The notes: generated by a model from the letters alone, not told the origin. Counted from the first letter of the stretch, positions 3,516 through 25,176 are shown. The stretch is 25,176 nucleotides of DNA from Acidobacteriota bacterium (GCA_031418635.1 JANOXW010000255.1:1-25176); one strand, 5' to 3'. Program-made: numbers and translations.

Positions 3516-3527
3516 ACCCTTTTTCAG

Positions 3528-5111: not shown

Positions 5112-6470
5112 TTAATATAAAGAAATTCGCTTTAATGCCCGATGGATTTCAGGATTTTGCATAAACCATTGCCAATTTTTTCTGGTTCGCAAATTTTCCG
5201 CGCTCAACAGCGTAATGCCGACATCAATGCCAATGACATATTGATTTACCCAACCGTTATTCGGATTAAAAGCGTCGGCAAATCCATAATTTCCATAAAT
5301 TGTTTTTCCGAACCGCGATTTCATTTCTAAAAGCGCGGGCAGTGTAATTTCCGGCATAAACATCAGCGAACCGGCGGGCGCACACGGCACGACTGTTCCG
5401 TCAATTGCCGCATCACGCGGCGGTGCGCCCCAAGCAATATAACCTTTTTGACTGTCCGAAGCCGTCAAGCCCCAAATGTTTTCCGAATAGCCCGCAAATT
5501 GTTTGGTCAAAGTCTGGAAAAAGGCTTTCTGCGCTTTAGTTGCGTTGACCGAATTTTCAAAATAATCGGTGTATGGACGACGGCGTTCACGTTTCCCGCG
5601 AAAATCAATCCAAGCGTGTGAATATTGGTGAATAAAAAGCGGCGAAACGGCGGCAAGATAACGATAGCCGTAAAATGTGCGCCATTCTCTTTTCCAAGCA
5701 TACCAAACTTTCGGCGAAACCGAATGCGTCGGCGAACCGATTGCCAAAATATACAACAACATCTGTTCGCTGTAATCTCTCCAACGCGCCGTTAAAAATC
5801 CCGTTTCAGGCTTCCAGCCGTGCGAAAAAAGATTTGAACTTCCCGCCAACATCCACGGAAAATCAACTCTTTCGTAAATCTGTGTGGCTAACTTAACGAT
5901 TTCTTTATCGTCCGAAAAACATTGCCGCACGGTTAAAACTCCGCCAAGCAGAAGCGTGGTATCAATCGAAGAAATCTCGCTGTTCCAACGCCGTTCGCCC
6001 GTCTGTTTGTCCAACCAATGATAAAACCAACCGTTTTTATGCGGTGCGCGATTGAGCAAAAAATCGAGCGATTTTCGGGCGCGTTCTTTGGCTTCGACAG
6101 ATGTTACCCAATTATTATCTGCCGCAATGCACAAACCCGACAAACCGAAACCTTCCGCGCCAACACTAGCAATATTATAACTCGGATGCGTTGTTGGTAA
6201 AGGCTTTCCGTCAGTTCGTGCGCGGTCAAGCGTCAAACCCGTTTCCGCGTCGGATTGTTCCCAAAAATAAAGAAAAGCGCGATGTTCTAAATCTTCTAAA
6301 AAAGCCTCGTCGGTTTCTGTTAGCTGATAAACCTTTGGCTTTTGTTTTCTGCTTTGACGACTTTGCGCTGTCGCAAAATTGTTGCCGACAAACGACAGCA
6401 AAAGCAAAAACAAAGTGAGAAAATAGCTCAAACGCAGTAAGCTGTTTTTCTCAGGTAATCGAAAATTCAT
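5112..6470 (-). CDS. Secreted Glycoamylase-domain (PF10091-type) glycoside hydrolase, GH144-like endo-beta-1,2-glucanase
   Basis: 452 aa; signal peptide; motifs RAFLYFWEQ, GFGLS, EISSIDT, DYSEQMLLYILAIGSP, PLFIHQYSHAWIDFR, WGLTASD, DGTVVP, YGFADAFNP, IGIDVG. The exact subfamily within the beta-1,2-glucanase clan is not resolvable by eye. Confidence 0.8.
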   Translation of the reverse strand: MNFRLPEKNSLLRLSYFLTLFLLLLSFVGNNFATAQSRQSRKQKPKVYQLTETDEAFLEDLEHRAFLYFWEQSDAETGLTLDRARTDGKPLPTTHPSYNIASVGAEGFGLSGLCIAADNNWVTSVEAKERARKSLDFLLNRAPHKNGWFYHWLDKQTGERRWNSEISSIDTTLLLGGVLTVRQCFSDDKEIVKLATQIYERVDFPWMLAGSSNLFSHGWKPETGFLTARWRDYSEQMLLYILAIGSPTHSVSPKVWYAWKREWRTFYGYRYLAAVSPLFIHQYSHAWIDFRGKRERRRPYTDYFENSVNATKAQKAFFQTLTKQFAGYSENIWGLTASDSQKGYIAWGAPPRDAAIDGTVVPCAPAGSLMFMPEITLPALLEMKSRFGKTIYGNYGFADAFNPNNGWVNQYVIGIDVGITLLSAENLRTRKNWQWFMQNPEIHRALKRISLY

Positions 6471-6474
6471 AAAC

Positions 6475-8688: not shown

Positions 8689-8723
8689 ATTTGTTCCCTT
8701 TGGCTTTGAAACTTGTTTAGATA

Positions 8724-8741
8724 TACTAAAACCATTGTGCT
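8724..8741. promoter_or_regulatory. Possible weak LacI operator upstream of bglX
   Basis: TACTAAAACCATTGTGCT matches the reverse complement of operator 2 (TACTAAAACGATTTAGTG) at 13 of 18 positions but lacks the central CG. Confidence 0.3.
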
Positions 8742-8852
8742 GATAGTAGATTGACAATTTAAAATCATATTTAAACCGCAGATGAAAATAGATAAACATA
8801 TGATAAGAAAAGGCGCCAATACAAAAACGACTTTGCGTAAGATAAATTATTA

Positions 8853-10199
8853 ATGAAAAATCAAATTATCGCTCAAATCGAATCTTTCAAGTTTCTCAGC
8901 TATTATCTGTGTCTATGTCTTTTGGGCTTTTCGACAGTTTCAGCGCAATCTAATCAAACAGTTATCAAACTTTTGCAAGAATCTGCCGCGTTGATTCAAG
9001 CGGGAAATTTTAGCGAAGCCGAACCACTTTTGCGTCATGCTGTTTCGATTGCGCCGACAAATTCCGACGCGCATAATCTTCTCGGTATCGTGTTTGACCA
9101 ACAAGGCAAAATCGTCGAAGCCGAAAAATCTTACCGCATCGCGCTGAAATTAAATCCGAAAGCCGTTTCACCGCTTGCCAACTTGGGCGTTTTGCTTGCC
9201 CGCACGAAAAAATATGAACAAGCCGCGCAAATTTTTGAAAATATCTTAAAAGTTGTGCCAAATCATCCGCAAGCCACTATCAATCTCGGACTGCTTTACA
9301 CTTCGTTGAGCAAATACGAAAAAGCCGTCAAACTTCTCCAAATTGCTGACCAAATTCAGCCTGATTCTTTTGACATTATTTTCAATCTCGCGCTGTCGCT
9401 TTATCATTTGCAACGCTTTGACAGAGCAAATGCGGTTTTCACGGAAGCCGCTAAACTTTCGCCAAATGCGCCCGAACCGTTTTATTATCTCGGCTTAATC
9501 GCTTTTGAACACAAACAAGATGAAACAGCGGCGGATTTTTTTGATAAAGCCGTCAACTTGCGCCCAACTTACGCCGAAGCCAATTTTATGCTTGGCGAGA
9601 TTTTGCGAAAAAACAATCGGCTCGACATTGCCAAAGATTTTTACGAAAAAGCATTGGCGCAAAATCCTTCGCAAGCCGTCAATTATATTCGTCTCGGCGG
9701 CGTTTATTTGGTCTTAAACGATTTTGCCAAAGCATTGGACGTTTTCACCAAAGCAGCAAAACTTTTTCCGAACATCCCTGAAATTTATTACTTTCTAAGC
9801 ATCACGGCTCGCGCTCAAGGAAATTACGATTTAGCTCTCGCGTCGCTTAGAAAATCCCTTGCGCTGAAACCCGAAAACGCGGATGCGTTAGCACTTTTAG
9901 GCGCAATTTTAGCTGATAAAAATGAACTCGTCGAAGCTGAAAAACTTCTTCGTCAAGCGATAAATCTCGACAAAAATCATTTCAATTCGCATCACGATTT
10001 GGGTAAGTTATTGGTCAGAAATCGTCGTTACGAAGAAGCCTTGCCGATTTTGCAACGCGCTTCGTCGCTCAAACCCGAAAATCCTGATGTGCATTATCAA
10101 CTTTTCCTGACTCTTTCACGGCTTAAACGCCAAATCGAAGCTGACCAAGAGTTGGCTATTTATAAAAAATTAAGCGATGTGAACAAAAATCCAAAGTAA
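8853..10199 (+). CDS. Secreted all-TPR protein (about a dozen repeats)
   Basis: 448 aa; signal peptide ending VSAQ; repeated 34-aa units such as AHNLLGIVFDQQG..EAEKSYRIALKLNP; no other domain visible. Confidence 0.9.
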   Translation: MKNQIIAQIESFKFLSYYLCLCLLGFSTVSAQSNQTVIKLLQESAALIQAGNFSEAEPLLRHAVSIAPTNSDAHNLLGIVFDQQGKIVEAEKSYRIALKLNPKAVSPLANLGVLLARTKKYEQAAQIFENILKVVPNHPQATINLGLLYTSLSKYEKAVKLLQIADQIQPDSFDIIFNLALSLYHLQRFDRANAVFTEAAKLSPNAPEPFYYLGLIAFEHKQDETAADFFDKAVNLRPTYAEANFMLGEILRKNNRLDIAKDFYEKALAQNPSQAVNYIRLGGVYLVLNDFAKALDVFTKAAKLFPNIPEIYYFLSITARAQGNYDLALASLRKSLALKPENADALALLGAILADKNELVEAEKLLRQAINLDKNHFNSHHDLGKLLVRNRRYEEALPILQRASSLKPENPDVHYQLFLTLSRLKRQIEADQELAIYKKLSDVNKNPK

Positions 10200-10240
10200 T
10201 AAAGACGCGGAAAACCAATTTATTTTCCGCGTCTTTATTA
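10197..10240. terminator. Bidirectional terminator hairpin between the convergent TPR and TBDR genes
   Basis: Perfect 18-bp stem TAATAAAGACGCGGAAAA / TTTTCCGCGTCTTTATTA with an 8-nt loop. Confidence 0.8.
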
Positions 10241-10245
10241 CCGTT

Positions 10246-13200
10246 TTAGAAACTAAATCTCGCTTGTAATTCAATAACTCGACCAGCGAGTCCGGTAGTC
10301 GCTCTGCCGAATCTCGGATTCGGATTATCGTCGTTATTGATTCTCGTGCTGTCGGAAGCAAAACCGAACGGAGCAAGATTAAGATTGTTAAAGGCATTGA
10401 AAAGATTAACCCGTAAATCTAAACCCGTGTTTTCACTTATACGCAGACCTTTCGGCAAATCAAACCGCTTGGAAATACTTATATCGGTTGAAAAGTATCG
10501 CGGACCGCGAAAACCGTTTCGTCCGATTCCAGGCGGATTAACCAGAAAAGATGTCTGACCCATCAAATTGCGGTTGAGAGTTGTCTGGAAAATCCGATTA
10601 CAGCCAACTCCCATAGCAGCTCTACAGTTAGCTCCCGCAATAAAACTTCCCGTAAAGTTGCCGTTACCGTTAAGAAATGTATCGTTGGAAGTATTATTTC
10701 CGGCTCCGCCGAAAAATCCAATCGGGCGGAAAGGTCCGAATTCAGCCCCGCTTGCCGAGCGAATTCCCTGATTGGCGACGACCGGTGTAAATGGAAAACC
10801 GGTATGCCAAGTTACGATTCCGTTGACTTGCCAACCGCCGAGAAAAGTTCCGACCAAATCATTACGATTGCGGAAAATCGGCAAATCCCACAAACCGAAA
10901 ACATTCAAATTATGTCTAACGTCAAAATCTGAAGGTCCGTATTCCGAATCATTATCAACCGGAAAAGTTTGGTTGGTTACAAAACCGGGACCAGAATTTG
11001 ATAAATTATCGAGACTTTTGGCAAAACGATAATTTGCCTGAAACTGAAAACCGTTGGCAAATCGTCGTTCAAGCGTTGCCAACAAAGCGTTGTATCTCGA
11101 AATGACATCAGGTGTCGGCAAAAATGCCTGAAAAATACGCGGATTTACATTGGCAAAGATAAAGTTTTGATTAACCAATCGAATCAGGTTTTGATTCGCA
11201 CTTCCTTGATAGCCGACTGTCGCCGTCAATTTGGCGGGCAATTGATATTGTCCTTCGAGCGAATAACGAAAACTTTGAGCATTCGGCTGGTTTTGCGGCG
11301 AACCGTAAATTTCTACCGAACTGTTGAACGGCAATCCGGTCATCGGGTTGATTCCGCCGCCCAAAAGCGGATTTCTCGGAAAACTATTGGGCGAATTACT
11401 GCTTCCCAACGCATATAAAATCTGTCCGTCAACAAAAGGCGAACCGAAACCGTCGCCACCGGCAGGTCCAGCCGTTCCGCAACAAATGCCGAAGCGCGAA
11501 AAGAACGGCGGATTAGCCAACGAATTGATAAAGACGACGCTCGGTATGCGGTTATAGCCGATGCCGAATCCGCCGCGAATAACGGCTTTATTTTTTAAGA
11601 AACCGGGACTGTAAGCAATGCCGATTTGCGGTCCGAAATTGTTTTTGTCCGATTGAAAGAATTGATCAACAAGTTCAACTCTCGAATCGGATAATCCGTT
11701 TGGTCCGAAAATAAGATTGGTTTGCTGATTTAATCCATCGCTAATCGGCGGAAAAAATTCATATCTCAAGCCTAAATTGACAGTCAGATTCGGTCTGACT
11801 TTCCAATCATCCTGCACAAAAAAAGCATAATCATTTGTTCTGTATCTACGCTCCGCACTCGCCGGTGTGCCGGTGTTCGGATCGGCGTTAATACCTTCAA
11901 AAATCGGCGTGTCGTTTGCCAAATTAAAGAATCCGGTAAAAGTAAAAATCGGACGCGCACCGCCGATCAGACTTCTTTCGTTAATATCAAACCGAAGTTG
12001 TGTGCCAAACTTAAGCGCGTGATTGCCTATCAGCCAGTTGAATGTGTCGCTGAAATCCACACTTTTTTCCGACAAAATGCCGGGCGTATTTTCATTTTGC
12101 GGTGCGCCGAATCTGATGCGGTCAAACGGAAGTTGCTCGATTTCAATGCGCGGAATACCGAAGTTTGAACCCGGATTCGAGGCAACCTCGTCATACGAAA
12201 AACCACTGTAATTGACACGCGCCTGATTAAATTTAGTAGCTGAAATGGTGCGGTTATAAATTGCCGCGACCGAAAAACTCAGCCGATCCGAGATAATGTC
12301 GCCAATCGGACGACTGCGCCCGGCAATATCCGAACCGTTGGCTAAAGTTGGTGTAAAAAAGGTTGAAACGGCAATGCTGTCTTTTGCGGTTGCGTTGTAA
12401 TCAACCCGTGTAAAATATTGGTTTCCGGCAAAAGTATTCGGAACATTTAAGCGGACAAATTGAACGTCGGGAATACCATCAAAACCGCCGCCGATATTAG
12501 CTCTGCCAACTCCGTCGCCGAATGGCAAATAAACATTTCGTGTGCCGGTAATCGAACCAATATCTAGTCCGCCACTGACTGCCTGACATCTTTGCGGTCC
12601 ATAACCAGCCGCCGCGCAAGTGGTCGGAAGCACGGACAAAATACGCGGTGCGATGCCCGGTGCGCCGAAAACTCGTGCCGTTACACCATTCGGGCGCAGA
12701 GCGCGAACTGCGTCGCGGAATTGCGATGTTTCGACAAAAGCATCGGATGTTGTATTCGTGTTATTACGCAAGCCCTCATACGCAAAAAAGAAAAACAATT
12801 TATCTTTGCCGCTGGTTGCAAACGGACCGCCTTCACCAAAGTTCAAAAACGGCAAAGGTCCGCCGAAACTGCCGCCGAATTGCTTGAGCCGTTGGGTAAC
12901 TCGTGCCGGTGCATTGGGAAATTTATTAAAGGAATTTAATCCGGGATCATTATATTTAAAAAAACCGCTTCCGTGATAATCGTTTGTTCCGTTTTGGCTG
13001 ACGACTTTGACAACTGCGCCGGAATTTCGCCCATCTTCCGCCGAATAAGTGGATGACGAAATGTTGACTTCCTTGACGGCTTCTTGGCTTGGCGTGATAA
13101 TCGCGCCGCCGCCATTGGTTTGGCTGTTGACGCTTACACCGTCTATCTGAAAGTTGTTTGCTTCGACTCGTTGACCGTTTGCCGTAATCGGAACTTGGTT

Positions 13201-13794
13201 TTCAGTTTGGAAAATCGAACTGTTGGAACCGCCCGGACCGGGCGAATTCGGAAAACCGCTCGAACCTCCGTTGCCGCCGCGTGCGCCGTCGCCAAAAATT
13301 CCCGGCGTTAAGCGTGCTAACTCGTAAGGATCGCGCCCAACCTGCGGCAGACGCAAAATTTCCTTAGTCGAGAGAGTGTTGTCAATGTTCGCGTCTTCAG
13401 TTTTGAGCGTTTCTGCTTCACTCGTTACCGTCACGATTTCGCTGATTCCGCCGGTTTCGAGCGCAATATTTAAACCTTGCAAGCCGTCTGCCCCGACCTC
13501 TACTTTTTCAACCACGTATTGTTTGAAATTTGTTTGCGTAACGACAAGTTTGTAGTTTCCCGGAGCAAGTCCGTTAAAACGATAAAATCCATCATTATTT
13601 GATACTGTGCTGACTTCTTTGTTGGTTTCGGTATTTGTCAAAACGACATTTGCGCCAACTACGGAAGATCCGCTTGAATCAGACACAGTTCCTTGTAATA
13701 CTGCCTTGAATTGCGCGTTGGCAATCAGCGCAAAACACAGAATTAAAACGCTACAACTTAAAAAGCGTTGTAAGCCGGAAAACTTTCGGTTCAT
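10246..13794 (-). CDS. TonB-dependent receptor, acidobacterial Oar-like type with an N-terminal carboxypeptidase-regulatory-like domain
   Basis: About 1180 aa; signal peptide; N-terminal LQGTVSDSSG...G.Y.L.V domain; plug motifs NNFQIDGVS, YSAEDGRNSG; barrel motifs YAFFVQDDWKVRPNLTVNLGLRYE and DKNNFGPQIGIAY; C-terminal F. RBS GGAGGTG favours ATG 13794. Confidence 0.93.
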   Translation of the reverse strand: MNRKFSGLQRFLSCSVLILCFALIANAQFKAVLQGTVSDSSGSSVVGANVVLTNTETNKEVSTVSNNDGFYRFNGLAPGNYKLVVTQTNFKQYVVEKVEVGADGLQGLNIALETGGISEIVTVTSEAETLKTEDANIDNTLSTKEILRLPQVGRDPYELARLTPGIFGDGARGGNGGSSGFPNSPGPGGSNSSIFQTENQVPITANGQRVEANNFQIDGVSVNSQTNGGGAIITPSQEAVKEVNISSSTYSAEDGRNSGAVVKVVSQNGTNDYHGSGFFKYNDPGLNSFNKFPNAPARVTQRLKQFGGSFGGPLPFLNFGEGGPFATSGKDKLFFFFAYEGLRNNTNTTSDAFVETSQFRDAVRALRPNGVTARVFGAPGIAPRILSVLPTTCAAAGYGPQRCQAVSGGLDIGSITGTRNVYLPFGDGVGRANIGGGFDGIPDVQFVRLNVPNTFAGNQYFTRVDYNATAKDSIAVSTFFTPTLANGSDIAGRSRPIGDIISDRLSFSVAAIYNRTISATKFNQARVNYSGFSYDEVASNPGSNFGIPRIEIEQLPFDRIRFGAPQNENTPGILSEKSVDFSDTFNWLIGNHALKFGTQLRFDINERSLIGGARPIFTFTGFFNLANDTPIFEGINADPNTGTPASAERRYRTNDYAFFVQDDWKVRPNLTVNLGLRYEFFPPISDGLNQQTNLIFGPNGLSDSRVELVDQFFQSDKNNFGPQIGIAYSPGFLKNKAVIRGGFGIGYNRIPSVVFINSLANPPFFSRFGICCGTAGPAGGDGFGSPFVDGQILYALGSSNSPNSFPRNPLLGGGINPMTGLPFNSSVEIYGSPQNQPNAQSFRYSLEGQYQLPAKLTATVGYQGSANQNLIRLVNQNFIFANVNPRIFQAFLPTPDVISRYNALLATLERRFANGFQFQANYRFAKSLDNLSNSGPGFVTNQTFPVDNDSEYGPSDFDVRHNLNVFGLWDLPIFRNRNDLVGTFLGGWQVNGIVTWHTGFPFTPVVANQGIRSASGAEFGPFRPIGFFGGAGNNTSNDTFLNGNGNFTGSFIAGANCRAAMGVGCNRIFQTTLNRNLMGQTSFLVNPPGIGRNGFRGPRYFSTDISISKRFDLPKGLRISENTGLDLRVNLFNAFNNLNLAPFGFASDSTRINNDDNPNPRFGRATTGLAGRVIELQARFSF

Positions 13795-13861
13795 AGAAAA
13801 CACCTCCAGAGCAATTTTTTTAAATATTTAGAATTATTTGAACAACTGTCGAAAAACGAAT

Positions 13862-13892
13862 TAGTAAATCGTTTCACTAAATCGTTTTAGTA
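13862..13892. promoter_or_regulatory. Two overlapping LacI-type operators
   Basis: Imperfect palindromes with central CG: TAGTAAATCGTTTCACTA (13862-13879) and CACTAAATCGTTTTAGTA (13875-13892); the core TAAATCGTTT repeats at 13-bp spacing; they lie between divergent lacI and TBDR genes. Confidence 0.7.
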
Positions 13893-13902
13893 ATGTTACA
13901 AA

Positions 13903-13930
13903 TTTATACTAAACATTAAGTTCCCGTCAA
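13903..13930 (-). promoter_or_regulatory. Putative sigma70 promoter for the TBDR
   Basis: Minus strand TTGACG (13925-13930), 16-nt spacer, TATAAA (13903-13908). The predicted start near 13896 lies just upstream of the operators. Confidence 0.55.
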
Positions 13931-13997
13931 CAACAAATCATAAAATGTTGGTTAATAATAAAATTTTCAGCCTATTCTTGTCTTAAAAGGTTTAGTT

Positions 13998-15089
13998 ATG
14001 CGACACTTACCACAACGTCGGGCGATAATGATGAAAAAAGACAAATCCAACGGGTTTTCAAAAGTTATGACCAAGCCAAAAGCGGTTAGCCTTAAAGAAC
14101 TTGCTGCGTCGCTCAAACTTTCGCCAACGACGGTTTCATTAGTTTTGAACGCTGCGCCGACGGCGAGTTCGATTCCGACCGGAACGCAAGATCGCATTTT
14201 TGAAGCAGCGCGAAATCTGAAATATCGCCCAAATCACATCGCCCGTTCATTACGCGCCCAACGCACACATACTATTGGCGTTTTGATTCCCGAAATGAGC
14301 GAAGGTTATTCGGCGACGGTTTTGAGTGGTGTCGAAGAAAAATTGTTGGAAGAAGGATATTTTTACTTCGTCGTCAGTCATTGGCATCGTGAAGCACTTA
14401 TCGAACATCATTCGCGTTTTTTTGTTGAAAGATGTGTCGAGGGAATTTTAGCGGTTGATACGCCGCAACATCATCAAACCTTTTTGCCGGTTGTTTCAAT
14501 TTCTGGACACGACGAAACCAAAGGTGTTACAAATATCGTCTTAAATCATGAACAAGCCGGACTTCTGGCGGTTGAACATCTGGTCAAACTCGGACATAAA
14601 AAAATCGCCGTCATCAAAGGACAATCATTTAGCTCTGATACAGAAGCGCGTTGGAACGCGATTCGGACAGCGGCGGCGCGATGTTCAATTCCGATAAAAG
14701 AAACTTTGGTTGCACAACTTGTCGGAACTAATCCGACACCCGAACCCGGATATGTTGCCGCCAAAGAATTATTAGCCGCTAAAGCTGAGTTTACGGCACT
14801 TCTTGCTTTTAATGACATTTCTGCTATCGGTGCAATTCGCGCTCTGAATGAATCTGGCAGACGAGTTCCCGAAGACGTTTCGGTCATCGGGTTTGACGAT
14901 ATTTACGCGGCGGAATTTCATAATCCGTCGCTTACGACCATTCGCCAACCGCTGAAAGAAATGGGTTGTTTGGGCGCGGAATATTTGTTGAAAAGAATCC
15001 GCGAAAATCAAAGCGACGATTTTCCCGCCGACGTAACCGTTGAGCCGGAATTAGTAATTCGTCAATCAACCGCCGCAGTCAAAAACTAA
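13998..15089 (+). CDS. LacI-family transcriptional regulator
   Basis: HTH VSLKELAASLKLSPTTVSLVLN; hinge YRPNHIARSL; sensor motifs FNDISAIGAIRAL and VPEDVSVIGFDD...PSLTTIRQP. The start could be a downstream ATG. Confidence 0.95.
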   Translation: MRHLPQRRAIMMKKDKSNGFSKVMTKPKAVSLKELAASLKLSPTTVSLVLNAAPTASSIPTGTQDRIFEAARNLKYRPNHIARSLRAQRTHTIGVLIPEMSEGYSATVLSGVEEKLLEEGYFYFVVSHWHREALIEHHSRFFVERCVEGILAVDTPQHHQTFLPVVSISGHDETKGVTNIVLNHEQAGLLAVEHLVKLGHKKIAVIKGQSFSSDTEARWNAIRTAAARCSIPIKETLVAQLVGTNPTPEPGYVAAKELLAAKAEFTALLAFNDISAIGAIRALNESGRRVPEDVSVIGFDDIYAAEFHNPSLTTIRQPLKEMGCLGAEYLLKRIRENQSDDFPADVTVEPELVIRQSTAAVKN

Positions 15090-15133
15090 AGCGGTCAATT
15101 TATCCTGCAATTTCAAAATTAGGAGATTTCTAA

Positions 15134-18256
<3,123 letters not shown>

Positions 18257-18518: not shown

Positions 18519-21500
18519 CTATTTCGGTTCGCCTTGAAGCGTGAAAGTCGCCCAGAAATATGGATTTTGCCAGCGTTTGTCTTTGAGCAGAGAAATCTGT
18601 GCTTGTCGCAAAGCGGACGCGGGCGACAATTTTTTGCCGCCGAGCATTTCGCGGTAAAAATTCGCCATCAATTCGGCAGTTCCCTCGTCGTTCACGTCCC
18701 AAAGACTGACGACGACGCGCTTTGCGCCCGCATACATAAAGCCGCGTGTCATTCCGATTAAGCCTTCACCGCGAATTTCTTTGCCCAAACCCGTGCGGCA
18801 ACCACTTAGAACAACCATTTCCGCCGGCAGTTTCAGATTAAAAATATCGTTGACGCGCAGAAATCCATCTTGCTCTTTGCCGCTTTCGTCAATCGTCGAA
18901 AAAACGATGCCCGAAAGTTCGGGATTTTCGTTGTTGATAAAACCGTGCGTGGCAAAATGAATGTAACGATAATTTGCCAATTCGGGCGACATTGCTGAAC
19001 TTCGATTTGCCGCAAAATCTAACATTTTTTCTTTTTGATTTTCGGCAACCAACGCACTTATCGAATCGGCTTCGCGCCGCGTGAACGGCAATCGCAGCAA
19101 ATCCATATCGCCAACGTCAGAACTTCGCAGACGTTTTTTTGAAACAGCGACAAACTCCGTTGGCGGTTTATTTTGCTCCGCCATCAATTGAAATCTCTCG
19201 TCCGTTTTATCAAAAATCGGGTCAGCCAAAACCGCCAAAGTTTTCGCCGCAAGCGGTCTGCCGTTCATTTCACGCCGTAAAATCGCCAAAGCTGACGCAG
19301 AAGGTAAATTAACAATTTCGTGTTCTTCAATTAAAAATCGTTCTTCGACTTTGGACTTTGGACTTTGGACTTTGGACTTTGGAACAGTAAGCGAAGCGAA
19401 CGGAACATATTGCAACGCGCCGTCGGCGACGATTAGCAGACGTTTGCTTTCTAAAAACGGCGCAGCAGGCGCGAGGATTTGTTGGCTCAATTCCTTTGAA
19501 AATTTCTGCAAATCCGAATCGGTGATAAAGATTCGGTCGGCGCGTTCATTCGCGGTTTCAAATTCGATTTGCTTGTTTCGCGCTGTTAGAGATTCGTAAA
19601 ATTGCCGCGCCGTTTTTTCGATAATGGATTTCGCGGGCAGTTCGACGGTGCGAAAATTATCTTTTGAAACAATCCACAGATAGCTTTTTTCTTCGCCCAA
19701 AGCGTATTCGAGCAAAACGGAATCGGTATCTAAAAGTTCGCTTTGAATTTCTTTGAGAGTCAATGTTTTCGGTTGTTTAAGTGCTGCATAACGCGGATTT
19801 TGGCGACGAATTTGCGATTGTGTTTGTTCGTAATCGGTGCGGAGTTGGGCGATTTCGTTTTTTAGCTCGGCGATTTTCACCGCCTCCGATTTTCGACTTA
19901 AAGCCTTTGTCAAATTTTCAAATCTTGCCGTCAACGAGTTTCCGAGTTCTTTTTCCTTAGCCAAAAGACTTTCGTTCACGCCTTGCCGAATATCAATGTT
20001 TGATTCGGTTAAAAGATTCAAAAGACCGCGGGCGCGGGCGCGTTCATTTGCTTGAAGCGCAAGTTCGGCGAAGTTTTTGTTTGGTTCGAGTTTCTGACGT
20101 TGCATCAAAAGTTCGATATACGCGCTATAATAATTGTAAATCGTCGTCGAAAAAGAATCGCGTAAAGTGTTATTACTCATCTCGGCGCGAAAACCCTCAA
20201 TCAAGTTTAAGGCTTCTTCGATATGAGTTTGCGCTTCGTCCGTTTTTCCTAATCGGCTTTTGATCTTTGTTAGCAAATATAATGTTTTGGTAATGCGCGT
20301 CGGGTCTTCGATGGTGCGATATATGTCTAAAGATTTCTCCGCAAACTCCGTTGCTTCTGCCAATTTGCCGAGTTTTAAGTAAAATTCACCGAGAGTTTTC
20401 AAGAAAAACGCTTCGTTAGATTTATCGCTCTGTGTTTGTGCGATCTTCAAGGCTTCGTTTAGATATTCAAAGCCTTTGTCGGTGTTGCCGAGTTGAAAAT
20501 ATGAACGACCTAAGTTGCTGAAATAGCTTGGTTCAGGTTGTCTGCCAGACAAACTTTTATGCAAAGCAATCGCTTTTTCGTAATATTCGACGGCTTTTTG
20601 ATAATCCTTGTTTTCGTTGACGCAGTTTCCCATATAATTTAGCGTGATTGCCTGATTATATTTGTCATCGGTTTCTTCAAAGAGTTTGAGAGCCGCAACG
20701 TGATAGCTTTCGGCACGCGGCGCATCTTGCAAGCGGTAATAAATCGCGCCGATTCCATTGAGCGCAATGCCTTCGGTTTTTTTATTTTTCACTTCCTTTG
20801 AAAGTGCGAGCGATTCCGTCAAAATTTCGATTGCCTTTTGTCTTTCGCCGAGATACGCATAAACTCTGCCAAGACTATTTAATGCGTAGGATTGTTGTTT
20901 TTTATCGCCAATCGCCCGAAAAATTTCCAAAGAACGCTGATGAAATTCGATAGCTTTGCGTCGTTCGCCCAATCCTGTCAGTAAAATTCCGATGTTATCG
21001 AGAGCGACGGCTTCGGGTTTCTGTGCTTGTGCAAACTGAAATTTTTCGATTGCTTCCTGAAATTTTTTGATAGCGATTTGGATGTTTCCGAATGATGAAT
21101 CGGCTTTGATGAGTATTTCCATCTCGCTCATTATTCGTTTGCCGTCGGTGTAGCTGAATTCCTTTTCGGTTGCCGTGCGTAATTCGATAATGTTTAAGCG
21201 ATAATTTCCGTCGGTTTTATCAGCTGTGGTAACGCTTATTTGATAATCGCCCGCTTTTCTGACGGCGGCGTTGAGCGTTTCGGTTTCGTTCGTCGAACTG
21301 ACGGTTATTCCGTCCAACATAAACTTCCCGTCGGGTTCAAACATACTGACAGCGATAATGCCGTTGGTCGAAGTCGCGCTAATCTTTACAAATTGCCCAT
21401 TTTCGAGATGAATTTTGTAAAGATGTTTTTGCTTCGGCGAAACTTCGCGTGTTATCGCTTGTCCTTCTGACAGCGTTTTGACCTCTTCGGCAGTCTGACT

Positions 21501-21575
21501 TTGCGCGTTGGTCGGCAAAAACAGTAAAACTAAAATAAAATTGGCGGCAATTATTTCGATAAATCTATTTTTCAT
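18519..21575 (-). CDS. Secreted TPR-CHAT (caspase-like HetF/CHAT) protease with an N-terminal PPC-like beta-sandwich
   Basis: RBS AAGGAG spacing favours ATG 21575. Signal peptide (ILVLLFLPTNA-QSQ); PPC-like domain (KHLYKIHLENGQFV...); about 7 TPRs; CHAT motifs LLIVADGALQYVPFASL, IHFATHG (His codon 18945-18947), VVLSGCRTG (Cys codon 18798-18800), VVVSLWDVND, PYFWATF. Confidence 0.93.
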   Translation of the reverse strand: MKNRFIEIIAANFILVLLFLPTNAQSQTAEEVKTLSEGQAITREVSPKQKHLYKIHLENGQFVKISATSTNGIIAVSMFEPDGKFMLDGITVSSTNETETLNAAVRKAGDYQISVTTADKTDGNYRLNIIELRTATEKEFSYTDGKRIMSEMEILIKADSSFGNIQIAIKKFQEAIEKFQFAQAQKPEAVALDNIGILLTGLGERRKAIEFHQRSLEIFRAIGDKKQQSYALNSLGRVYAYLGERQKAIEILTESLALSKEVKNKKTEGIALNGIGAIYYRLQDAPRAESYHVAALKLFEETDDKYNQAITLNYMGNCVNENKDYQKAVEYYEKAIALHKSLSGRQPEPSYFSNLGRSYFQLGNTDKGFEYLNEALKIAQTQSDKSNEAFFLKTLGEFYLKLGKLAEATEFAEKSLDIYRTIEDPTRITKTLYLLTKIKSRLGKTDEAQTHIEEALNLIEGFRAEMSNNTLRDSFSTTIYNYYSAYIELLMQRQKLEPNKNFAELALQANERARARGLLNLLTESNIDIRQGVNESLLAKEKELGNSLTARFENLTKALSRKSEAVKIAELKNEIAQLRTDYEQTQSQIRRQNPRYAALKQPKTLTLKEIQSELLDTDSVLLEYALGEEKSYLWIVSKDNFRTVELPAKSIIEKTARQFYESLTARNKQIEFETANERADRIFITDSDLQKFSKELSQQILAPAAPFLESKRLLIVADGALQYVPFASLTVPKSKVQSPKSKVEERFLIEEHEIVNLPSASALAILRREMNGRPLAAKTLAVLADPIFDKTDERFQLMAEQNKPPTEFVAVSKKRLRSSDVGDMDLLRLPFTRREADSISALVAENQKEKMLDFAANRSSAMSPELANYRYIHFATHGFINNENPELSGIVFSTIDESGKEQDGFLRVNDIFNLKLPAEMVVLSGCRTGLGKEIRGEGLIGMTRGFMYAGAKRVVVSLWDVNDEGTAELMANFYREMLGGKKLSPASALRQAQISLLKDKRWQNPYFWATFTLQGEPK
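19347..19383. repeat. Perfect heptamer tandem repeat (GACTTTG)x5 inside the CHAT domain
   Basis: Five exact copies at 19347-19381 plus GA; translated as VPKSKVQSPKSKV between FASL and RFLIEEHEIV. Confidence 0.95.
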
Positions 21576-21766
21576 TTCCATCTCCTTCTCGCTTGTAAAA
21601 AAAATCGAATATTTAAGACAGAATCAATTTACCGAAAAGGCAGGTTGATAATCTTTAGAGAAATCTGAATGTTTTATGAATATTTTATGATGAAATTATT
21701 TGACGGTTGGGCATAATTTATCGCGTTTGCGGTGGTTTGTAAGTATTTATGCACACTATGCAGGCA

Positions 21767-21955
21767 AATTTTATCACTACAAAACTATTTCTTAGTGCTA
21801 CAAAGTCATTTCGTAGCGATACAAAACCATTTTGTAGTGGTATGAAATGACTTTGTAGTGCTATAAAATCATTTCGTAGTGGTATGAAATTATTTTGTAG
21901 TGCTACAAAACTATTTCGTAGTGGTATGAAACCATTTCGTAGTGATAGAAAATTA
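21767..21955. repeat. Tandem array of eight (plus one partial) 21-bp palindromic units
   Basis: Units start at 21788, 21809, 21830, 21851, 21872, 21893, 21914 and 21935; consensus TTTYGTAG-TG-STAYRAAA-NNA. The unit at 21893 (TTTTGTAG TG CTACAAAA) is a perfect 8-bp inverted repeat. Confidence 0.92.
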
Positions 21956-22079
21956 CTTTTTATCGCAAAAAAGGCGGTAAATTGACAGGAATCGGACAAA
22001 AAATAAACTGCATTAGCAAAAAATCTTTCAGATTCGGTTAAATTTATTGTTGCGCGATTGATTCATACACCAACTTCAA

Positions 22080-24236
22080 TTATTTTGTCTGCTTTGTTTT
22101 CGCTAAATCGTTGGCAATTCGCGCTGAAAGTTTGGAGATTGCGCCGACGTATTTCCAACCTGAAACACGCTTTCGAGTTGGATAAACGACGAAGCCTTGA
22201 GAATTTACAAGCCGCACAATCGCCGTCGTTGTTTCGTCTGTCGGATTGTTTGCGTCAGATTCGCGGCGCACAAAAATCATCAAACGCGCGTCAGCTTTTT
22301 CTTTCGGCACAATCGTAAAAGTTCCGTTTTTGAAAATCTCGGCAGAAATTTGTTCCTTAATTTGTCTGCTAAAACTTTCGTCGCCCGAAATATCGAGATA
22401 AATATGCTTGATTTCGCCCAAAGACTTTCCGCGTTTGATCGGACTGCGAACTTCTTTACGCTCATCAATATTATTGCCCTTTTCTCTAATCGGCAATCGC
22501 CAAACTTCCGTCGGGTTTGCATCGTTCGGTAAATTTTTCGGCTTGTTATTTTGCGCCTGTAACTCTTTTGGCGGAGTTTCAACCACGATTTCTTTTTTCG
22601 GCGCGACTCGCTTTTTATCTTCCGAGTTCGGCTTTTTGTCTTTTTTAATTACTGAATCGTTTTGTTCTTTAACCTTCGGCGGCGAAACGATTTTTTCGGA
22701 CGTTTCTTTGTCATCTTTGACAATTTCCTTTGATGGTTCGGGAATTTTGATGTCGTCCGTTTGCTTTTTCGGCGTTGGATTATCGTGAGCAACATCTTGT
22801 TTGTTCGCGCCAATCATTTGCCGATAAAACAGCCAACCGATTGACATTGCCAAAAGAATCAGTCCAAACGCCAACGCCGGTTTGAACGCCCAACTTAGAT
22901 TGTTGAACCAATTTGACAGCGAAAATCCGACGTTTTCGGAAGCCACAATCAAAGGTTTCGGCAATTCCGTTTCGGCATATTCGACACCGCAATTTATTCC
23001 GACGACTTCGCCGTATTCGTCCTTTGTCGGTTGCAAATTGAACGAAACTTTTTGTCCGCCTTCGAGCAAAACCGATTGGAGTTGATTGCCGTTTTCCAAG
23101 TCTTCAAAGCTCAAAAGATGCGTCGCTAAAATCACTTCGCCGTCTTTTTCAACTACGCGAACCTCGATTAATTCGGCTTCGTCGCCCAAATCGAAATTTA
23201 CTTGGTCGGTTTCTTCAAGATTGATTTTCGCTCTTTCGTTGCCGTCCACGACGACGCGCAAAAGGTTGGCGGACAGTGCGCGACGGCTTTCGGCTTGCGC
23301 CGCGAGAAGGTCTTTGATGGTTTGCAATTCGTCCGCTTCAAGATTCGGCGGATTGCGCCAATCGTCGTTGTTCTCGTTTGGTTGAATGTTTGAAAGCATA
23401 AATTTGGGAATCTCCATTTTTTCTTTGGGCGCAGGCAAATTCAAAGCGTCGGTCAAACGCGCAAAGCATTGCGGATGTAAAGCCGCGTGAATGCGGTTGA
23501 CCTCGATGCGATGTTCCGCGTCGGGATTTTGTTTGTCGAAATGAAACGGCGCGATGATGTCGTCAAACGGATTAAATTTGTCGGGAATCGCGCAAGAACT
23601 GTTCCAAGGCGTGAAAAATTGTAAGCAATCTTTCGCCGTTTCTGATAATTTTTCCGTGTCTGTTTGATGATTAAACCGTTCTTCGCCGCGATTGACTTTA
23701 ACGACTTCGAGAAGTTCGCCGAAACGCGCCTTTAATTCCTTCATCAAAACGCCTTTCCGCGAACGATAATAGTAATCGTCGTGAACTCGGTCAGCGTCTT
23801 GAACGACGATATTATAGATTTCCATCGCGTCATTCGTGCCGTAATTGTGCAAAATCCGCGAAATGCCAAGCGTTACATAAAACGAATTGCGCTTTAACGA
23901 AATACGAACTAAGTGTTTGATGAAATAGACGAGCAAGTTTCTTTCACTCGTCTTTTTCGTCGCTTCATTTTGTTTTTCAAAGTTCTCCGATTCGACAAAA
24001 ACGAGCCGTTGCAAAAGTTGTAAATCATTTAAAGAAACACGGCTGCGCGTCGCCCGCGAAGTTTCAGCGCGTCCGACGGGCGTGTAGTAATAGCGTTTGA
24101 ACTGCGCGTTGGAAGCGGTTTCGAGTTTGTTCATCGCAGACACAGCAATTTGCTTGGCGATGTCGCGCTTGCCATGTATAAAAAAAGCAAGCTGAAACGC
24201 CTTGTTAAGCCAATCGTCTATCTGATTTGTCTTCAT
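22080..24236 (-). CDS. Single-pass membrane protein; putative divergent ECF-sigma / zinc anti-sigma fusion with a periplasmic C-terminal domain
   Basis: 718 aa; no signal peptide. Residues 9-38 follow an ECF sigma2 pattern and residues 118-172 a sigma4 pattern. H250-x3-H254-x2-C257 plus C204/C215; one TM near residues 450-470; K/E/P-rich linker; alpha/beta C-terminal domain. The ORF is certain; the domain call is inference. Confidence 0.6.
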   Translation of the reverse strand: MKTNQIDDWLNKAFQLAFFIHGKRDIAKQIAVSAMNKLETASNAQFKRYYYTPVGRAETSRATRSRVSLNDLQLLQRLVFVESENFEKQNEATKKTSERNLLVYFIKHLVRISLKRNSFYVTLGISRILHNYGTNDAMEIYNIVVQDADRVHDDYYYRSRKGVLMKELKARFGELLEVVKVNRGEERFNHQTDTEKLSETAKDCLQFFTPWNSSCAIPDKFNPFDDIIAPFHFDKQNPDAEHRIEVNRIHAALHPQCFARLTDALNLPAPKEKMEIPKFMLSNIQPNENNDDWRNPPNLEADELQTIKDLLAAQAESRRALSANLLRVVVDGNERAKINLEETDQVNFDLGDEAELIEVRVVEKDGEVILATHLLSFEDLENGNQLQSVLLEGGQKVSFNLQPTKDEYGEVVGINCGVEYAETELPKPLIVASENVGFSLSNWFNNLSWAFKPALAFGLILLAMSIGWLFYRQMIGANKQDVAHDNPTPKKQTDDIKIPEPSKEIVKDDKETSEKIVSPPKVKEQNDSVIKKDKKPNSEDKKRVAPKKEIVVETPPKELQAQNNKPKNLPNDANPTEVWRLPIREKGNNIDERKEVRSPIKRGKSLGEIKHIYLDISGDESFSRQIKEQISAEIFKNGTFTIVPKEKADARLMIFVRRESDANNPTDETTTAIVRLVNSQGFVVYPTRKRVSGWKYVGAISKLSARIANDLAKTKQTK

Positions 24237-24247
24237 ATTACTGAATA

Positions 24248-24325
24248 GAATTAACAGGGATGAAGGAGATGAAGAGGATATAAAAAATCTTTTATCCCTT
24301 TCATCCTATTCATCCCTGTTAATTC
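24248..24325. repeat. Nonamer-built REP-like long hairpin immediately upstream of the 718-aa gene
   Basis: Perfect 17-bp outer arms GAATTAACAGGGATGAA / TTCATCCCTGTTAATTC, continuing imperfectly inward through GATGAA units. Confidence 0.88.
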
Positions 24326-24530
24326 TTCTTTAATTCATCGGTTAATTCTTCCTCGCTTAATCCACCAACATATTACTCCAACAAGCAAATTTCAGCGTGT
24401 AATTTTCGGAATTCACAAAATAACACGCAGTTAATTTTCAATGTGCGCGAAACTCATCGTGTTGATAACGAAAAATCAATCTGCTGAGAAGCGATTCTCA
24501 AGCAAAACTTTTTTGAAGGAACAAACATAA

Positions 24531-24926
24531 ATGAGAAGCACATTAAAAATTTTGAGTCTGATTATTTTGGTTTTGGCATTTGCCAGCCAAGCGAAAATCA
24601 ACGCCGCCGAAACCGCCGATTTTTCGGTTGAGGTTTTAGAGATAAAAGATTTGGGAATCTCGGCAAATGACGATTCCAAATCAATTGTCGAAGTGCGTTG
24701 GCGCGTCAATCCGACTCTCGTTGCCAATGTCGCTTCTTTCAATTTAGTTCTTTCCGTAACTTACGCCGACGGAACAACGACATATATCAAAAGACAAACC
24801 GATGGAAAATCGCTGTCAATGCGCGTCGAAGTTTCAAGCGTGAACATTTCAAAAGGTAAGTCCACAGCATTTATCAAAAAGCTGAACGCTACGGTAACTG
24901 CCGTGATTCCAGAAAAACAATTCTAA
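24531..24926 (+). CDS. Small secreted hypothetical protein, predicted beta-sandwich (Ig/Fn3-like)
   Basis: 131 aa; signal peptide ending ASQA; alternating beta-strand patterns (IVEVRWRV, FNLVLSVTY, MRVEV); GAAGGA RBS-like site upstream. Confidence 0.75.
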   Translation: MRSTLKILSLIILVLAFASQAKINAAETADFSVEVLEIKDLGISANDDSKSIVEVRWRVNPTLVANVASFNLVLSVTYADGTTTYIKRQTDGKSLSMRVEVSSVNISKGKSTAFIKKLNATVTAVIPEKQF

Positions 24927-24988
24927 ATTCCAAAACACAAACTTCTTAAATAAAAGAAGAGATAAAACTAAAAAGAGGACATAAAAAA

Positions 24989-25176
24989 ATGAAAAAATTA
25001 ACAGTAACAGCAATTTTCGGTTTGGCATTAGCCATCGCTTTAGGTTTCGGATTTATCCCGTCAATGGATCAATCAGCTGCTTGCGCCGATTGTAATAACG
25101 ACGACGCAACCGTCGCCAAGAAAATTTACGATAAGTTCACCGAGGAATGTGCCAAGTTGATTCCCGACCCGAAAGT
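24989..25176 (+). CDS. Secreted Cys-containing hypothetical protein, partial (runs off the window)
   Basis: Not in the ORF track. RBS AGAGGA; reads MKKLTVTAIFGLALAIALGFGFIPSMDQSAACADCNNDDATVAKKIYDKFTEECAKLIPDPK with no stop; hydrophobic N-terminus; C32, C35, C54. Confidence 0.8.
   Translation, partial: MKKLTVTAIFGLALAIALGFGFIPSMDQSAACADCNNDDATVAKKIYDKFTEECAKLIPDPK

What the first reader, a model, noticed from the sequence alone, without database searches (positions are those of the whole stretch)
18519..25176. Candidate trans-envelope proteolytic signalling system: secreted TPR-CHAT protease plus membrane-tethered sigma/anti-sigma fusion plus divergent secreted proteins
Seen: the 718-aa membrane protein and a signal-peptide-bearing TPR-CHAT protease are co-oriented and separated by a palindromic array, and two small secreted ORFs are transcribed divergently. 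Established: CHAT proteases are TPR-gated caspase relatives; in type III-E CRISPR, Csx29 cuts Csx30, which is linked to a sigma factor; ECF sigmas are commonly freed by regulated intramembrane proteolysis. Inference: ligand binding to the PPC/TPR part activates CHAT in the periplasm, it cuts the K/E/P-rich linker as a site-1 protease, and the cytoplasmic sigma-like part is released to activate the divergent genes. There are no cas genes or nucleotide sensors here. I know of no characterised equivalent but could not search.
Basis: partly seen in the sequence, partly recalled or inferred. Interest (0 to 1): 0.85.

Follow-up and report, generated by a model that had tools for sequence, protein, structure and literature searches.

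The report
Membrane sigma-like protein with exported CHAT protease
A soil acidobacterium carries a conserved two-gene unit: a membrane-spanning protein whose inner part looks like a hidden sigma factor joined to its own inhibitor, and a caspase-like protease exported to the periplasm. It is probably a new split version of a little-studied way of passing signals across the membrane by proteolysis.

Summary

**Linkage.** Homologues of the 718-aa membrane protein lie next to an orthologous signal-peptide TPR-CHAT gene in 27 of 28 loci from other genomes. The orientation is tandem in some and convergent in others. In two lineages the two genes are fused into one protein of about 1,600 aa.

**Compartments.** They fit the reading. 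The N-terminus is cytoplasmic, and the tail has an LptE/TolB-N-like periplasmic fold.

**The N-terminal 180 aa.**
- There is no Pfam hit and no significant profile match.
- Four structure libraries nevertheless give ECF sigma factors as the best match, though weakly.
- A nearly invariant C..HxxxH/DxxC motif follows, which is ZAS-like.

**Candidate cut site.** An ExTR motif with a near-invariant Arg597 lies in the disordered periplasmic tether.

**Not supported.**
- The palindromic array is a roughly 380-bp insertion of a dispersed repeat. The nearest relatives lack it.
- The small divergent genes accompany the pair only in one sublineage.
- Characterised analogues do exist: DdvA/DdvS, and the IutY and ECF52-type sigma/anti-sigma hybrids.

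No cleavage has been shown. This scan has noted analogous split sigma/anti-sigma/CHAT modules in other phyla, and a homologue of this membrane protein in another genome.

The parts
18519..21581 (-). Exported PPC-like/TPR/CHAT caspase-like protease, 1020 aa (P0001). Signal peptide about aa 1-26, weak PPC-like beta domain aa 53-118, TPR region aa 170-470, CHAT domain aa 693-1017.
   Evidence: Pfam CHAT E 5e-68, TPR_12 E 3e-45 and PPC E 0.023. Orthologues in 18 genomes all begin with a signal-peptide-like segment.
18798..18947 (-). Catalytic dyad of the CHAT domain: His879 (codon 18945-18947) and Cys928 (codon 18798-18800).
   Evidence: The HFATHG and LSGC(R/K)TG motifs are invariant in 18 partner proteins. 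The dyad is kept in the fused protein P0217.
21700..22076 (.). Insertion of about 380 bp in the spacer between the two genes. It carries the array of 21-bp palindromic units at 21777-21960. It is not a conserved part of the module.
   Evidence: TRF and repeat finder. Absent from the 120-160-bp spacers of the three closest relatives. Related arrays sit at two other contig ends of the same genome, C649:1-164 and C167:4872-5010.
22080..24236 (-). Single-pass membrane protein of 718 aa (P0002). It belongs to a Pfam-less family confined, among the genomes searched, to Blastocatellia.
   Evidence: No Pfam or NCBIfam hit. More than 966 homologues. 991 clusters at 50% identity. AF2 model with pLDDT 77.
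23961..24236 (-). Sigma2-like helical domain, aa 1-92, with a disordered insert at aa 46-67.
   Evidence: VIA and Foldseek hits: BldN (67 aa at 2.3 A), SigC and SigR sigma2 (67 aa at 2.5-2.7 A) and sigma70 domain 2. hhalign places it in register with region 2.1-2.2, but P is only 0.004.
23706..23951 (-). Sigma4-like helix-turn-helix domain, aa 96-177, containing the invariant NSFYV and DDYYYRSRKG motifs.
   Evidence: Sigma-E region 4 (2h27_D) aligns over 69 of 69 residues at 2.7 A, and sigma-H 3mzy also matches. A collinear hhalign alignment is not significant. Invariant columns are listed.
23418..23654 (-). ZAS-like region, aa 195-273: Cys215 ... His250-x3-His/Asp254-x2-Cys257 across a helix-helix junction.
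   Evidence: C215 129/131, H250 130/131, H/D/E254 130/131 and C257 129/131 among representatives less than 50% identical to each other. Helices 240-253 and 255-264 come from the model.
22971..23282 (-). Cytoplasmic beta-sandwich domain, aa 319-422, C2-like, function unknown.
   Evidence: AF2 strands 325-422. Weak VIA hits to C2 domains, Z about 6.
22803..22886 (-). Transmembrane helix, aa 451-478.
   Evidence: AF2 helix 451-478 over a hydrophobic stretch. It is conserved as a hydrophobic segment in alignment A1.
22437..22802 (-). Disordered periplasmic tether, aa 479-600, rich in K/E/P. At its distal end is an (E/D)-x-T-R motif with Arg597 (codon 22446-22448), the candidate protease site.
   Evidence: pLDDT below 50 for 478-574 and 587-599. 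R597 is kept in 121/123, Thr at P2 in 92/123 and an acidic P4 in 83/123 representatives, and R597 is invariant in A1.
22083..22424 (-). C-terminal periplasmic alpha/beta domain, aa 605-718, LptE/PelC/TolB-N/DUF4136-like fold.
   Evidence: VIA Z 8-10.7 to periplasmic lipoprotein folds: 5tse, PelC, TraT, TolB N-domain and LptE. Foldseek hits to DUF4136, LptE and FlgO clusters.
24395..24428 (+). 34-bp imperfect palindrome about 100 bp upstream of the 131-aa gene. It is a candidate operator or regulatory site of the divergent genes.
   Evidence: Conserved in 8 genomes down to 55% protein identity. This includes L032, where another gene has been inserted between it and the membrane-protein gene. 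It occurs once in the own genome. Its sequence changes are not compensatory.
24531..24926 (+). Divergent 131-aa protein with a signal peptide, no known family.
   Evidence: Homologues are adjacent only in the closest sublineage: L031-L034 and L076-L078, and more distantly in L038.
24989..25176 (+). N-terminal 62 codons of a protein that is 203 aa long in relatives (hydrophobic N-terminus). The gene is cut by the contig end.
   Evidence: Full-length 203-aa genes follow the 131-aa gene in L076-L078.

Best explanation
This is a conserved two-gene trans-envelope signalling module of Blastocatellia (Acidobacteriota).

**Gene 1** encodes a single-pass inner-membrane protein with these parts, in order:
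- a cytoplasmic, strongly diverged ECF-sigma-like sigma2-sigma4 fold;
- a Cys/His zinc-type anti-sigma-like region;
- a beta-sandwich;
- one TM helix;
- a roughly 120-aa disordered periplasmic tether;
- a small LptE/TolB-N-like end domain.

**Gene 2** encodes a Sec-exported TPR-CHAT caspase-like protease with an intact His-Cys dyad.

**Shown:** the domain anatomy, the membrane topology, the conserved pairing, the natural fusions and the presence of RseP.

**Inferred:**
1. A periplasmic cue received by the TPR (and, where present, PPC-like) part activates CHAT.
2. CHAT cuts the tether of gene 1's product, most likely after the near-invariant Arg of the ExTR motif (Arg597), acting as the site-1 protease.
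3. The shortened protein becomes a substrate for RseP.
4. The cytoplasmic sigma-like part is freed to change transcription.

This would be a split, one-polypeptide-sigma version of the mechanism proposed for DdvA/DdvS.
For: **Linkage.**
- 19 of 20 loci in the same family and all 8 loci from other families of the class have an orthologous CHAT gene adjacent.
- The orientation is tandem or convergent, so proximity itself is kept.
- The flanking genes differ between loci.

**Natural fusions.** P0217 (1574 aa, seen in 3 assemblies) and the ORF L090:1975-6783 (1602 aa) join the same N-terminal domain and TM helix to TPR-CHAT.

**Co-absence.** Three of four same-genus genomes lack both the membrane protein and a full-length orthologue of the protease.

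**Topology.**
- The membrane protein has no signal peptide and its N-terminal part carries a Cys/His motif.
- The C-terminal fold matches periplasmic lipoproteins at Z 8-10.7.
- All CHAT orthologues carry signal peptides.

**Protease competence.** The dyad is invariant.

**Sigma-like fold.** ECF sigmas are the top family in PDB Foldseek, exhaustive VIA, AFDB Swiss-Prot and ESM Atlas searches.

**Other support.**
- ZAS-like motif.
- ExTR with near-invariant Arg in an otherwise unconserved disordered region. Separase-type CHAT relatives cut after Arg in ExxR (PMC11506125).
- An RseP-type M50 protease with two PDZ domains is in the genome.
- Precedents: DdvA (PMC11506125), IutY (PMC5411451), ECF52 (PMC8999054).
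Against: - No cleavage or expression data exist.
- Sigma likeness is weak: Foldseek E is above 0.1 and VIA Z is 5.2-6.3, below the level the tool calls reliable for helical folds. There is no Pfam sigma or zf-HC2 hit. hhalign probability is 2-8%.
- The third zinc ligand is His/Asp rather than the Cys of the ZAS signature.
- A cut at Arg597 would leave about 120 periplasmic residues, more than RseP substrates usually keep, so further trimming would be needed.
- No ECF-type promoter was recognised. The conserved upstream element is a palindrome.
- Even for DdvA, CHAT cleavage has not been demonstrated (PMC11506125).
Confidence: 0.45

Rival explanations
1. The membrane protein is a proteolysis-controlled, membrane-tethered DNA-binding regulator of the ToxR/CadC/VtrA kind, not a sigma factor. 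Its sigma4-like helix-turn-helix binds, as a dimer, the 34-bp palindrome beside its own gene. The exported CHAT protease tunes it by acting on the periplasmic end domain.
For: - The only conserved non-coding element near the gene is a 17+17-bp imperfect palindrome, typical of dimeric regulators and unlike asymmetric ECF promoters.
- There is no sequence-level sigma signal.
- There are weak fold hits of the periplasmic part to the CadC and VtrA/VtrC periplasmic domains.
Against: - The palindrome exists only in the sublineage that has the 131-aa gene. It is absent from most loci that keep the pair.
- The best fold matches cover both sigma2 and sigma4, in the order found in ECF sigmas.
- The Cys/His motif sits where a fused anti-sigma domain would be.
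Confidence: 0.2
2. The signal flows the other way, or the output is periplasmic. The membrane protein anchors, inhibits or positions the CHAT protease through its end domain, as securin does for separase. The real substrates are other envelope or foreign proteins, for example in defence or cell-surface remodelling. The cytoplasmic domain is a sensor or scaffold.
For: - The conserved pairing and the fusions show that the two act as one unit, but not which is the substrate.
- In the fusions the CHAT part replaces the end domain.
- TPR-CHAT proteins are used in conflict systems. DdvA controls a defence island (PMC11506125).
Against: - A 300-aa cytoplasmic domain with 60% mean column identity and an HTH-like fold is hard to explain as a mere anchor.
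- There is no PADLOC match apart from generic TPR.
- No defence genes are conserved nearby.
Confidence: 0.2
3. The two genes are neighbours by descent only and do not interact functionally.
For: Related genomes share gene order, and no biochemical data exist.
Against: - Adjacency survives inversion of one gene, replacement of all flanking genes and divergence down to 22-35% identity across five families. The genes were also fused twice.
- Only 1 of the 9 CHAT genes in the genome has this neighbour.
Confidence: 0.05

Closest known systems
DdvA/DdvS of Myxococcus xanthus (transmembrane ZAS anti-sigma with periplasmic TPR-CHAT, plus ECF sigma; PMC11506125)
   Same: - A periplasmic TPR-CHAT with a His-Cys dyad is coupled to a single-pass membrane protein with a cytoplasmic Cys/His domain.
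- A flexible periplasmic linker is the proposed target.
- RseP is the second protease.
- Fused relatives of the window's pair (P0217, L090 ORF) have the DdvA layout.
   Different: - Here the protease is a separate Sec-exported protein.
- There is no separate sigma gene. Instead the membrane protein carries a roughly 180-aa sigma-like fold upstream of the zinc motif.
- The membrane protein has its own periplasmic end domain.
- There is no sequence similarity outside CHAT/TPR.
- The phylum is different.
- No defence island is nearby.
Sigma/anti-sigma hybrid proteins: IutY of Pseudomonas putida (ECF243; PMC5411451) and the ECF48/52/53 groups such as SCO4117 (PMC8999054)
   Same: - One polypeptide carries a sigma part, an anti-sigma (zinc-finger) part, a TM helix, a proline-rich extracytoplasmic stretch and an outer globular domain.
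- Activation by proteolytic release is shown for IutY (Prc plus RseP) and proposed for ECF52.
   Different: - Those proteins have sigma2/sigma4 domains that Pfam detects. This family does not.
- Their site-1 step uses Prc or is unknown, and no CHAT gene is linked to them.
- This family has an extra cytoplasmic beta-sandwich.
ECF54 group, with CHAT, subtilase or carboxypeptidase genes in its conserved neighbourhood (reviewed in PMC8999054)
   Same: An ECF-type regulator is genomically linked to a CHAT protease and predicted to be controlled by proteolysis.
   Different: ECF54 members are ordinary soluble sigma factors without a fused anti-sigma or TM part. They remain a bioinformatic prediction only.
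Type III-E CRISPR craspase (Cas7-11/Csx29 cutting Csx30, with sigma factor CASP-sigma; PMC10028731)
   Same: A TPR-CHAT protease cuts a regulator of a sigma factor.
   Different: - That system is cytoplasmic, RNA-guided and cas-linked.
- There are no cas genes in the window, and the protease here is exported.

Membership tests
CHAT peptidase (PF12770, caspase/separase-like clan) | CHAT domain above the Pfam cut-off | tested here: met
   P0001 residues 693-1017, E 4.7e-68, 230 bits against a cut-off of 24.
CHAT peptidase (PF12770, caspase/separase-like clan) | His-Cys catalytic dyad | tested here: met
   His879 and Cys928 are invariant in 18 orthologues and in a fused relative.
ECF (group 4) sigma-70 family | Sequence-detectable sigma2 (PF04542) and sigma4 (PF08281/PF04545) domains | tested here: not met
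   No Pfam hit for P0002 or for any of 42 homologues at E up to 1. hhalign against 12 ECF sigmas of the same genome gives probability 2-8% and P 0.004-0.024.
ECF (group 4) sigma-70 family | Two-domain sigma2-sigma4 fold | tested here: inconclusive
   ECF sigmas are the top family in four structure libraries. Domain-level fits are 2.3-2.7 A over 63-69 residues. Overall, however, Z is only 5.2-6.3 and Foldseek E is above 0.1.
ECF (group 4) sigma-70 family | Binds RNA polymerase core and directs promoter recognition | not testable with these tools
   Needs biochemistry. No ECF-type promoter motif was recognised upstream.
ZAS (zinc-binding) anti-sigma domain | H-x3-C-x2-C signature with an upstream H/C ligand; Pfam zf-HC2 | tested here: not met
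   The motif found is C215 ... H250-x3-(H/D)254-x2-C257, nearly invariant. This is a variant, not the signature. There is no zf-HC2 hit. Zinc binding was not tested.
DdvA-type transmembrane anti-sigma with periplasmic TPR-CHAT | Cytoplasmic sigma-binding domain, TM helix and periplasmic TPR-CHAT in one chain | tested here: not met
   In the window these are two genes. The one-chain form exists in relatives P0217 and L090:1975-6783.
DdvA-type transmembrane anti-sigma with periplasmic TPR-CHAT | Adjacent gene for a separate cognate ECF sigma | tested here: not met
   No sigma gene adjoins the pair in the window or in the relatives' loci annotated with Pfam.
DdvA-type transmembrane anti-sigma with periplasmic TPR-CHAT | RseP-dependent intramembrane proteolysis after loss of the periplasmic part | not testable with these tools
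   Only the gene's presence is shown: Peptidase_M50 plus two PDZ domains at G000:C581:7045-8397.
Sigma/anti-sigma hybrid (IutY, ECF52 type) | Sigma domains, anti-sigma domain and TM helix in one polypeptide, with an extracytoplasmic extension | tested here: inconclusive
   The architecture matches at fold and motif level, but the sigma and anti-sigma identities rest on weak similarity.
Type III-E CRISPR craspase system | Cas7-11 and Csx30 partners; cytoplasmic TPR-CHAT | tested here: not met
   The other genes of the window are sugar-uptake and glycosidase genes, with no cas genes. The protease has a signal peptide.

The most novel reading that the evidence does not exclude
The 718-aa family is a previously unrecognised group of membrane-tethered, self-inhibited ECF-like sigma factors that profile libraries do not detect. 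Its release would be triggered by a dedicated periplasmic caspase-fold protease cutting after an invariant Arg (ExTR). This would be the first case of a CHAT/separase-like enzyme serving as the site-1 protease of regulated intramembrane proteolysis. It would also be a tractable two-protein model for the step still unproven in DdvA.
Probability: 0.3. Interest if true: 0.8.

Novelty: new variant of a known kind. Interest (0 to 1): 0.6.

Why it matters
**A gap in DdvA work.** For DdvA, the only studied anti-sigma with a periplasmic CHAT domain, the trigger and the cleavage event are still unknown (PMC11506125).

**Why this module could help.** A naturally split version has protease and presumed substrate as separate proteins, with a sharply defined candidate site (Arg597). 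The key step could therefore be tested by simple co-expression.

**A family missed by domain-based surveys.** This family of about a thousand sequence clusters appears to hide a sigma/anti-sigma-like architecture from Pfam. ECF surveys based on domain models would miss it.

**Relevance to Acidobacteria.** These bacteria are abundant in soil but their signalling is poorly understood.

Tried and rejected
**Negative or uninformative searches.**
- Sequence searches of the membrane protein against Pfam, NCBIfam, PADLOC and PDB sequences gave nothing beyond low-complexity matches.
- Foldseek with the whole 718-aa model found only the C-terminal domain. The N-terminal 300 aa had to be folded separately.
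- hhalign against the genome's own ECF sigmas was run three ways. The alignments were collinear but not significant.
- Rfam gave only sub-threshold miRNA-like hits on the palindromic DNA.
- Promoter and terminator scans were no better than shuffled sequence.
- I tried to read an ECF-type -35/-10 pair in the conserved region upstream of the 131-aa gene, but the spacings were inconsistent between genomes.

**Readings considered and rejected.**
- The array as a regulatory part of the system. It is an insertion absent in relatives and is repeated at other contig ends.
- A conserved short motif (ILRLPIRE, aa 578-585) as a general docking site. It is confined to close relatives.
- The other eight CHAT genes of the genome as sharing this kind of partner. 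Their neighbours differ: a VgrG-like gene, a subtilase, and a weak DUF928-like gene.
- The 407-aa 'CHAT plus N-terminal domain' protein P0115 as a third fusion. It is a deletion or assembly chimera joined at a shared KEKM.

Full report
**What is there**

The window is one whole contig of a metagenome-assembled genome (G000:C255). Homologues of its genes come from records named Pyrinomonadaceae, which belongs to Acidobacteriota, class Blastocatellia.

- A 1020-aa ORF at 18519-21581 (-). It has a signal-peptide-like start, five TPR_12 stretches and a CHAT domain (PF12770, E 5e-68). The PPC match is only sub-threshold, E 0.023.
- A 718-aa ORF at 22080-24236 (-), without any Pfam or NCBIfam hit.
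- A tandem array of 21-bp palindromic units at 21777-21960.
- Two divergent ORFs with hydrophobic N-termini at 24531-24926 and 24989 to the contig end.
- The rest of the window is a sugar-uptake and glycosidase cluster with no cas genes.

**Linkage**

- The 718-aa protein has more than 966 homologues, all unnamed. It forms 991 clusters at 50% identity, almost all 590-780 aa long.
- It is an accessory gene. It was found in 27 of 151 genomes of the same family, a tally that includes the unpublished genome G032. No other claim here uses G032.
- It was found in none of four other genomes of the same genus. Outside the family it was found in 5 of 300 genomes of the phylum, all in the same class.
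- I fetched 20 loci from the family. In 19 of them the homologue lies directly beside an orthologous TPR-CHAT gene, with CHAT domains 50-71% identical.
- All 8 loci from other families of the class, including paralogues at 22-35% identity, also have the CHAT gene adjacent or within about 5 kb.
- The orientation is tandem in close relatives and convergent in others, and the flanking genes differ. Proximity itself is therefore maintained.
- The own genome has nine CHAT genes but only one copy of the membrane protein.
- Three of four same-genus genomes lacking the membrane protein also lack a full-length orthologue of this protease.
- Two natural fusions exist: P0217 (1574 aa, three assemblies) and the 1602-aa ORF L090:1975-6783. 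Each joins the same N-terminal domain and TM helix to TPR-CHAT.

**Compartments**

- All 18 partner proteases start with a signal-peptide-like segment once the likely start codon is chosen.
- The membrane protein has no signal peptide. It has 450 N-terminal residues with a Cys/His motif, then a helix at 451-478, a disordered stretch at 478-574 and a folded end domain.
- That end domain matches periplasmic lipoprotein folds (LptE, PelC, TraT, TolB N-domain, DUF4136) at VIA Z 8-10.7.
- In the fusions, the TPR-CHAT part sits on the same side as this end domain.
- Three lines thus agree on an N-in, C-out topology, with the protease and the tail together in the periplasm.
- The His879/Cys928 dyad is invariant.

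**The cytoplasmic part**

- Sequence methods see nothing. hhalign against the genome's own 12 ECF sigmas gives only a collinear, non-significant alignment (P 0.004-0.024).
- An AF2 model of residues 1-300 is confident (pLDDT 86, pTM 0.86).
- In four libraries the best-matching family is the ECF sigma factor:
  - SigW, PhyR, EcfG and SigH in PDB Foldseek;
  - SigW at Z 5.2, with roughly half of the top 50 being sigma factors, in an exhaustive VIA search;
  - EcfG, SigE and SigL in Swiss-Prot models;
  - 8 of 10 rows in the ESM Atlas.
- At domain level, residues 1-88 fit sigma2 (63-67 residues at 2.3-2.7 A). Residues 96-177 fit sigma-E region 4 over all 69 of its residues at 2.7 A.
- These scores are below what the tools call reliable for helical proteins. 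I rate a sigma-like fold at about two in three, and its function as a sigma factor as open.
- Directly after it lies C215 ... H250-x3-(H/D)254-x2-C257, kept in 129-130 of 131 representatives. It spans a helix-helix junction, as the ZAS motif does. It is a variant of the ZAS signature, not a match to it.
- A C2-like beta-sandwich (aa 319-422) follows.
- The overall order is sigma-like, zinc motif, TM helix, proline/lysine-rich tether, outer domain. This is the order described for ECF52-type and IutY-type sigma/anti-sigma hybrids (PMC8999054, PMC5411451).

**A candidate cut site**

- The periplasmic tether is unconserved, except for one Arg (R597) about 12 residues before the end domain.
- R597 is invariant in alignment A1 and present in 121 of 123 representatives. 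Thr is at P2 in 92 of them and Glu/Asp at P4 in 83.
- Separase-type relatives of CHAT cut after Arg in ExxR motifs (as cited in PMC11506125).
- This is an inference, but a sharp and testable one.
- An RseP-type site-2 protease is encoded in the genome.

**What does not belong**

- The palindromic array sits in an insertion of about 380 bp that the three closest relatives lack. Their spacers are 120-160 bp.
- Related arrays occur at two other contig ends of the same genome. It is a dispersed repeat.
- The 131-aa and 203-aa genes accompany the pair only in one sublineage.
- Upstream of the 131-aa gene there is a 34-bp imperfect palindrome (24395-24428). It is conserved in eight genomes, even where another gene has been inserted, and it is unique in the genome.
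- Its changes are not compensatory, so it looks like a protein-binding operator rather than an RNA hairpin or an ECF promoter. Whether the membrane protein's N-terminal part binds it is unknown.

**Comparison with what is known**

- The closest characterised system is DdvA/DdvS of Myxococcus xanthus. DdvA is a transmembrane zinc anti-sigma whose periplasmic part is a TPR-CHAT module. That module is proposed, but not shown, to cut the linker of the neighbouring protomer before RseP acts (PMC11506125).
- The window's pair is a split form. The protease is separate, there is no separate sigma gene, and the membrane protein carries its own sigma-like fold.
- IutY shows that a fused sigma/anti-sigma protein can be activated by sequential proteolysis (PMC5411451). 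ECF54 sigmas are already noted to be linked to CHAT genes (PMC8999054).
- I found no paper on Acidobacteria linking CHAT and sigma factors.
- Earlier notes of this scan report analogous split sigma/anti-sigma/exported-CHAT modules in several other phyla, and a homologue of this membrane protein in another genome. I reached DdvA independently through the literature search.

**Verdict**

- The pairing, topology and fusions are solid. The sigma/anti-sigma reading is plausible but weakly evidenced. The proteolytic mechanism is inferred.
- It is a new variant of a known kind, of moderate to high interest because it offers a simple two-protein test of a step that is unresolved for DdvA.

Noticed in passing
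window 21777-21960; G000:C649:1-164; G000:C167:4872-5010: The 21-bp palindromic tandem array is a dispersed repeat. Two further copies lie at contig ends, so such arrays probably break the assembly and more copies may exist.
   Followed up: partly
window 24340-24530 (alignment A3): About 190 bp upstream of the 131-aa gene is almost invariant among four genomes whose neighbouring proteins are only 77-84% identical. It includes the 34-bp palindrome and a second block around GCGCGAAACT.
   Followed up: partly
protein P0115 (407 aa, ENA metagenome contig): A chimeric ORF joins residues 35-274 of the membrane protein to the last roughly 165 residues of the CHAT protein at a shared KEKM. It is either a real deletion between the two genes or an assembly misjoin.
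   Followed up: partly
L076:768-5738, L077:1-3209, L078:125-1189: In close relatives the divergent side is a longer row of genes with no confident Pfam match (131, 203, 92, 773 and 405 aa). The window ends inside the second of them.
   Followed up: partly
window 19347-19383: Five perfect GACTTTG heptamers lie inside the CHAT gene, in a loop before the catalytic residues. The tract was not found in the CHAT genes of any fetched relative.
   Followed up: partly
G000 contigs C581, C676, C452, C517, C578, C685 (L098-L103): Eight other CHAT genes are in the genome, several with signal peptides, and their neighbours differ. One is divergent from a VgrG-like gene (Phage_GPD/gp5), one is followed by a subtilase, and one is preceded by a weak DUF928-like membrane protein.
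   Followed up: partly
window 167-18256: The rest of the contig is a carbohydrate-use cluster: an ABC sugar importer, GH3, a glucoamylase-like enzyme, a TonB-dependent-type barrel, a LacI regulator and a BNR/sortilin-like protein.
   Followed up: no
G166 (L090 and L091), G248 (L093, L095), G236 (L096, L097): Some genomes of other families in the class carry two copies of the module. In G166 one copy is split and the other is fused.
   Followed up: partly
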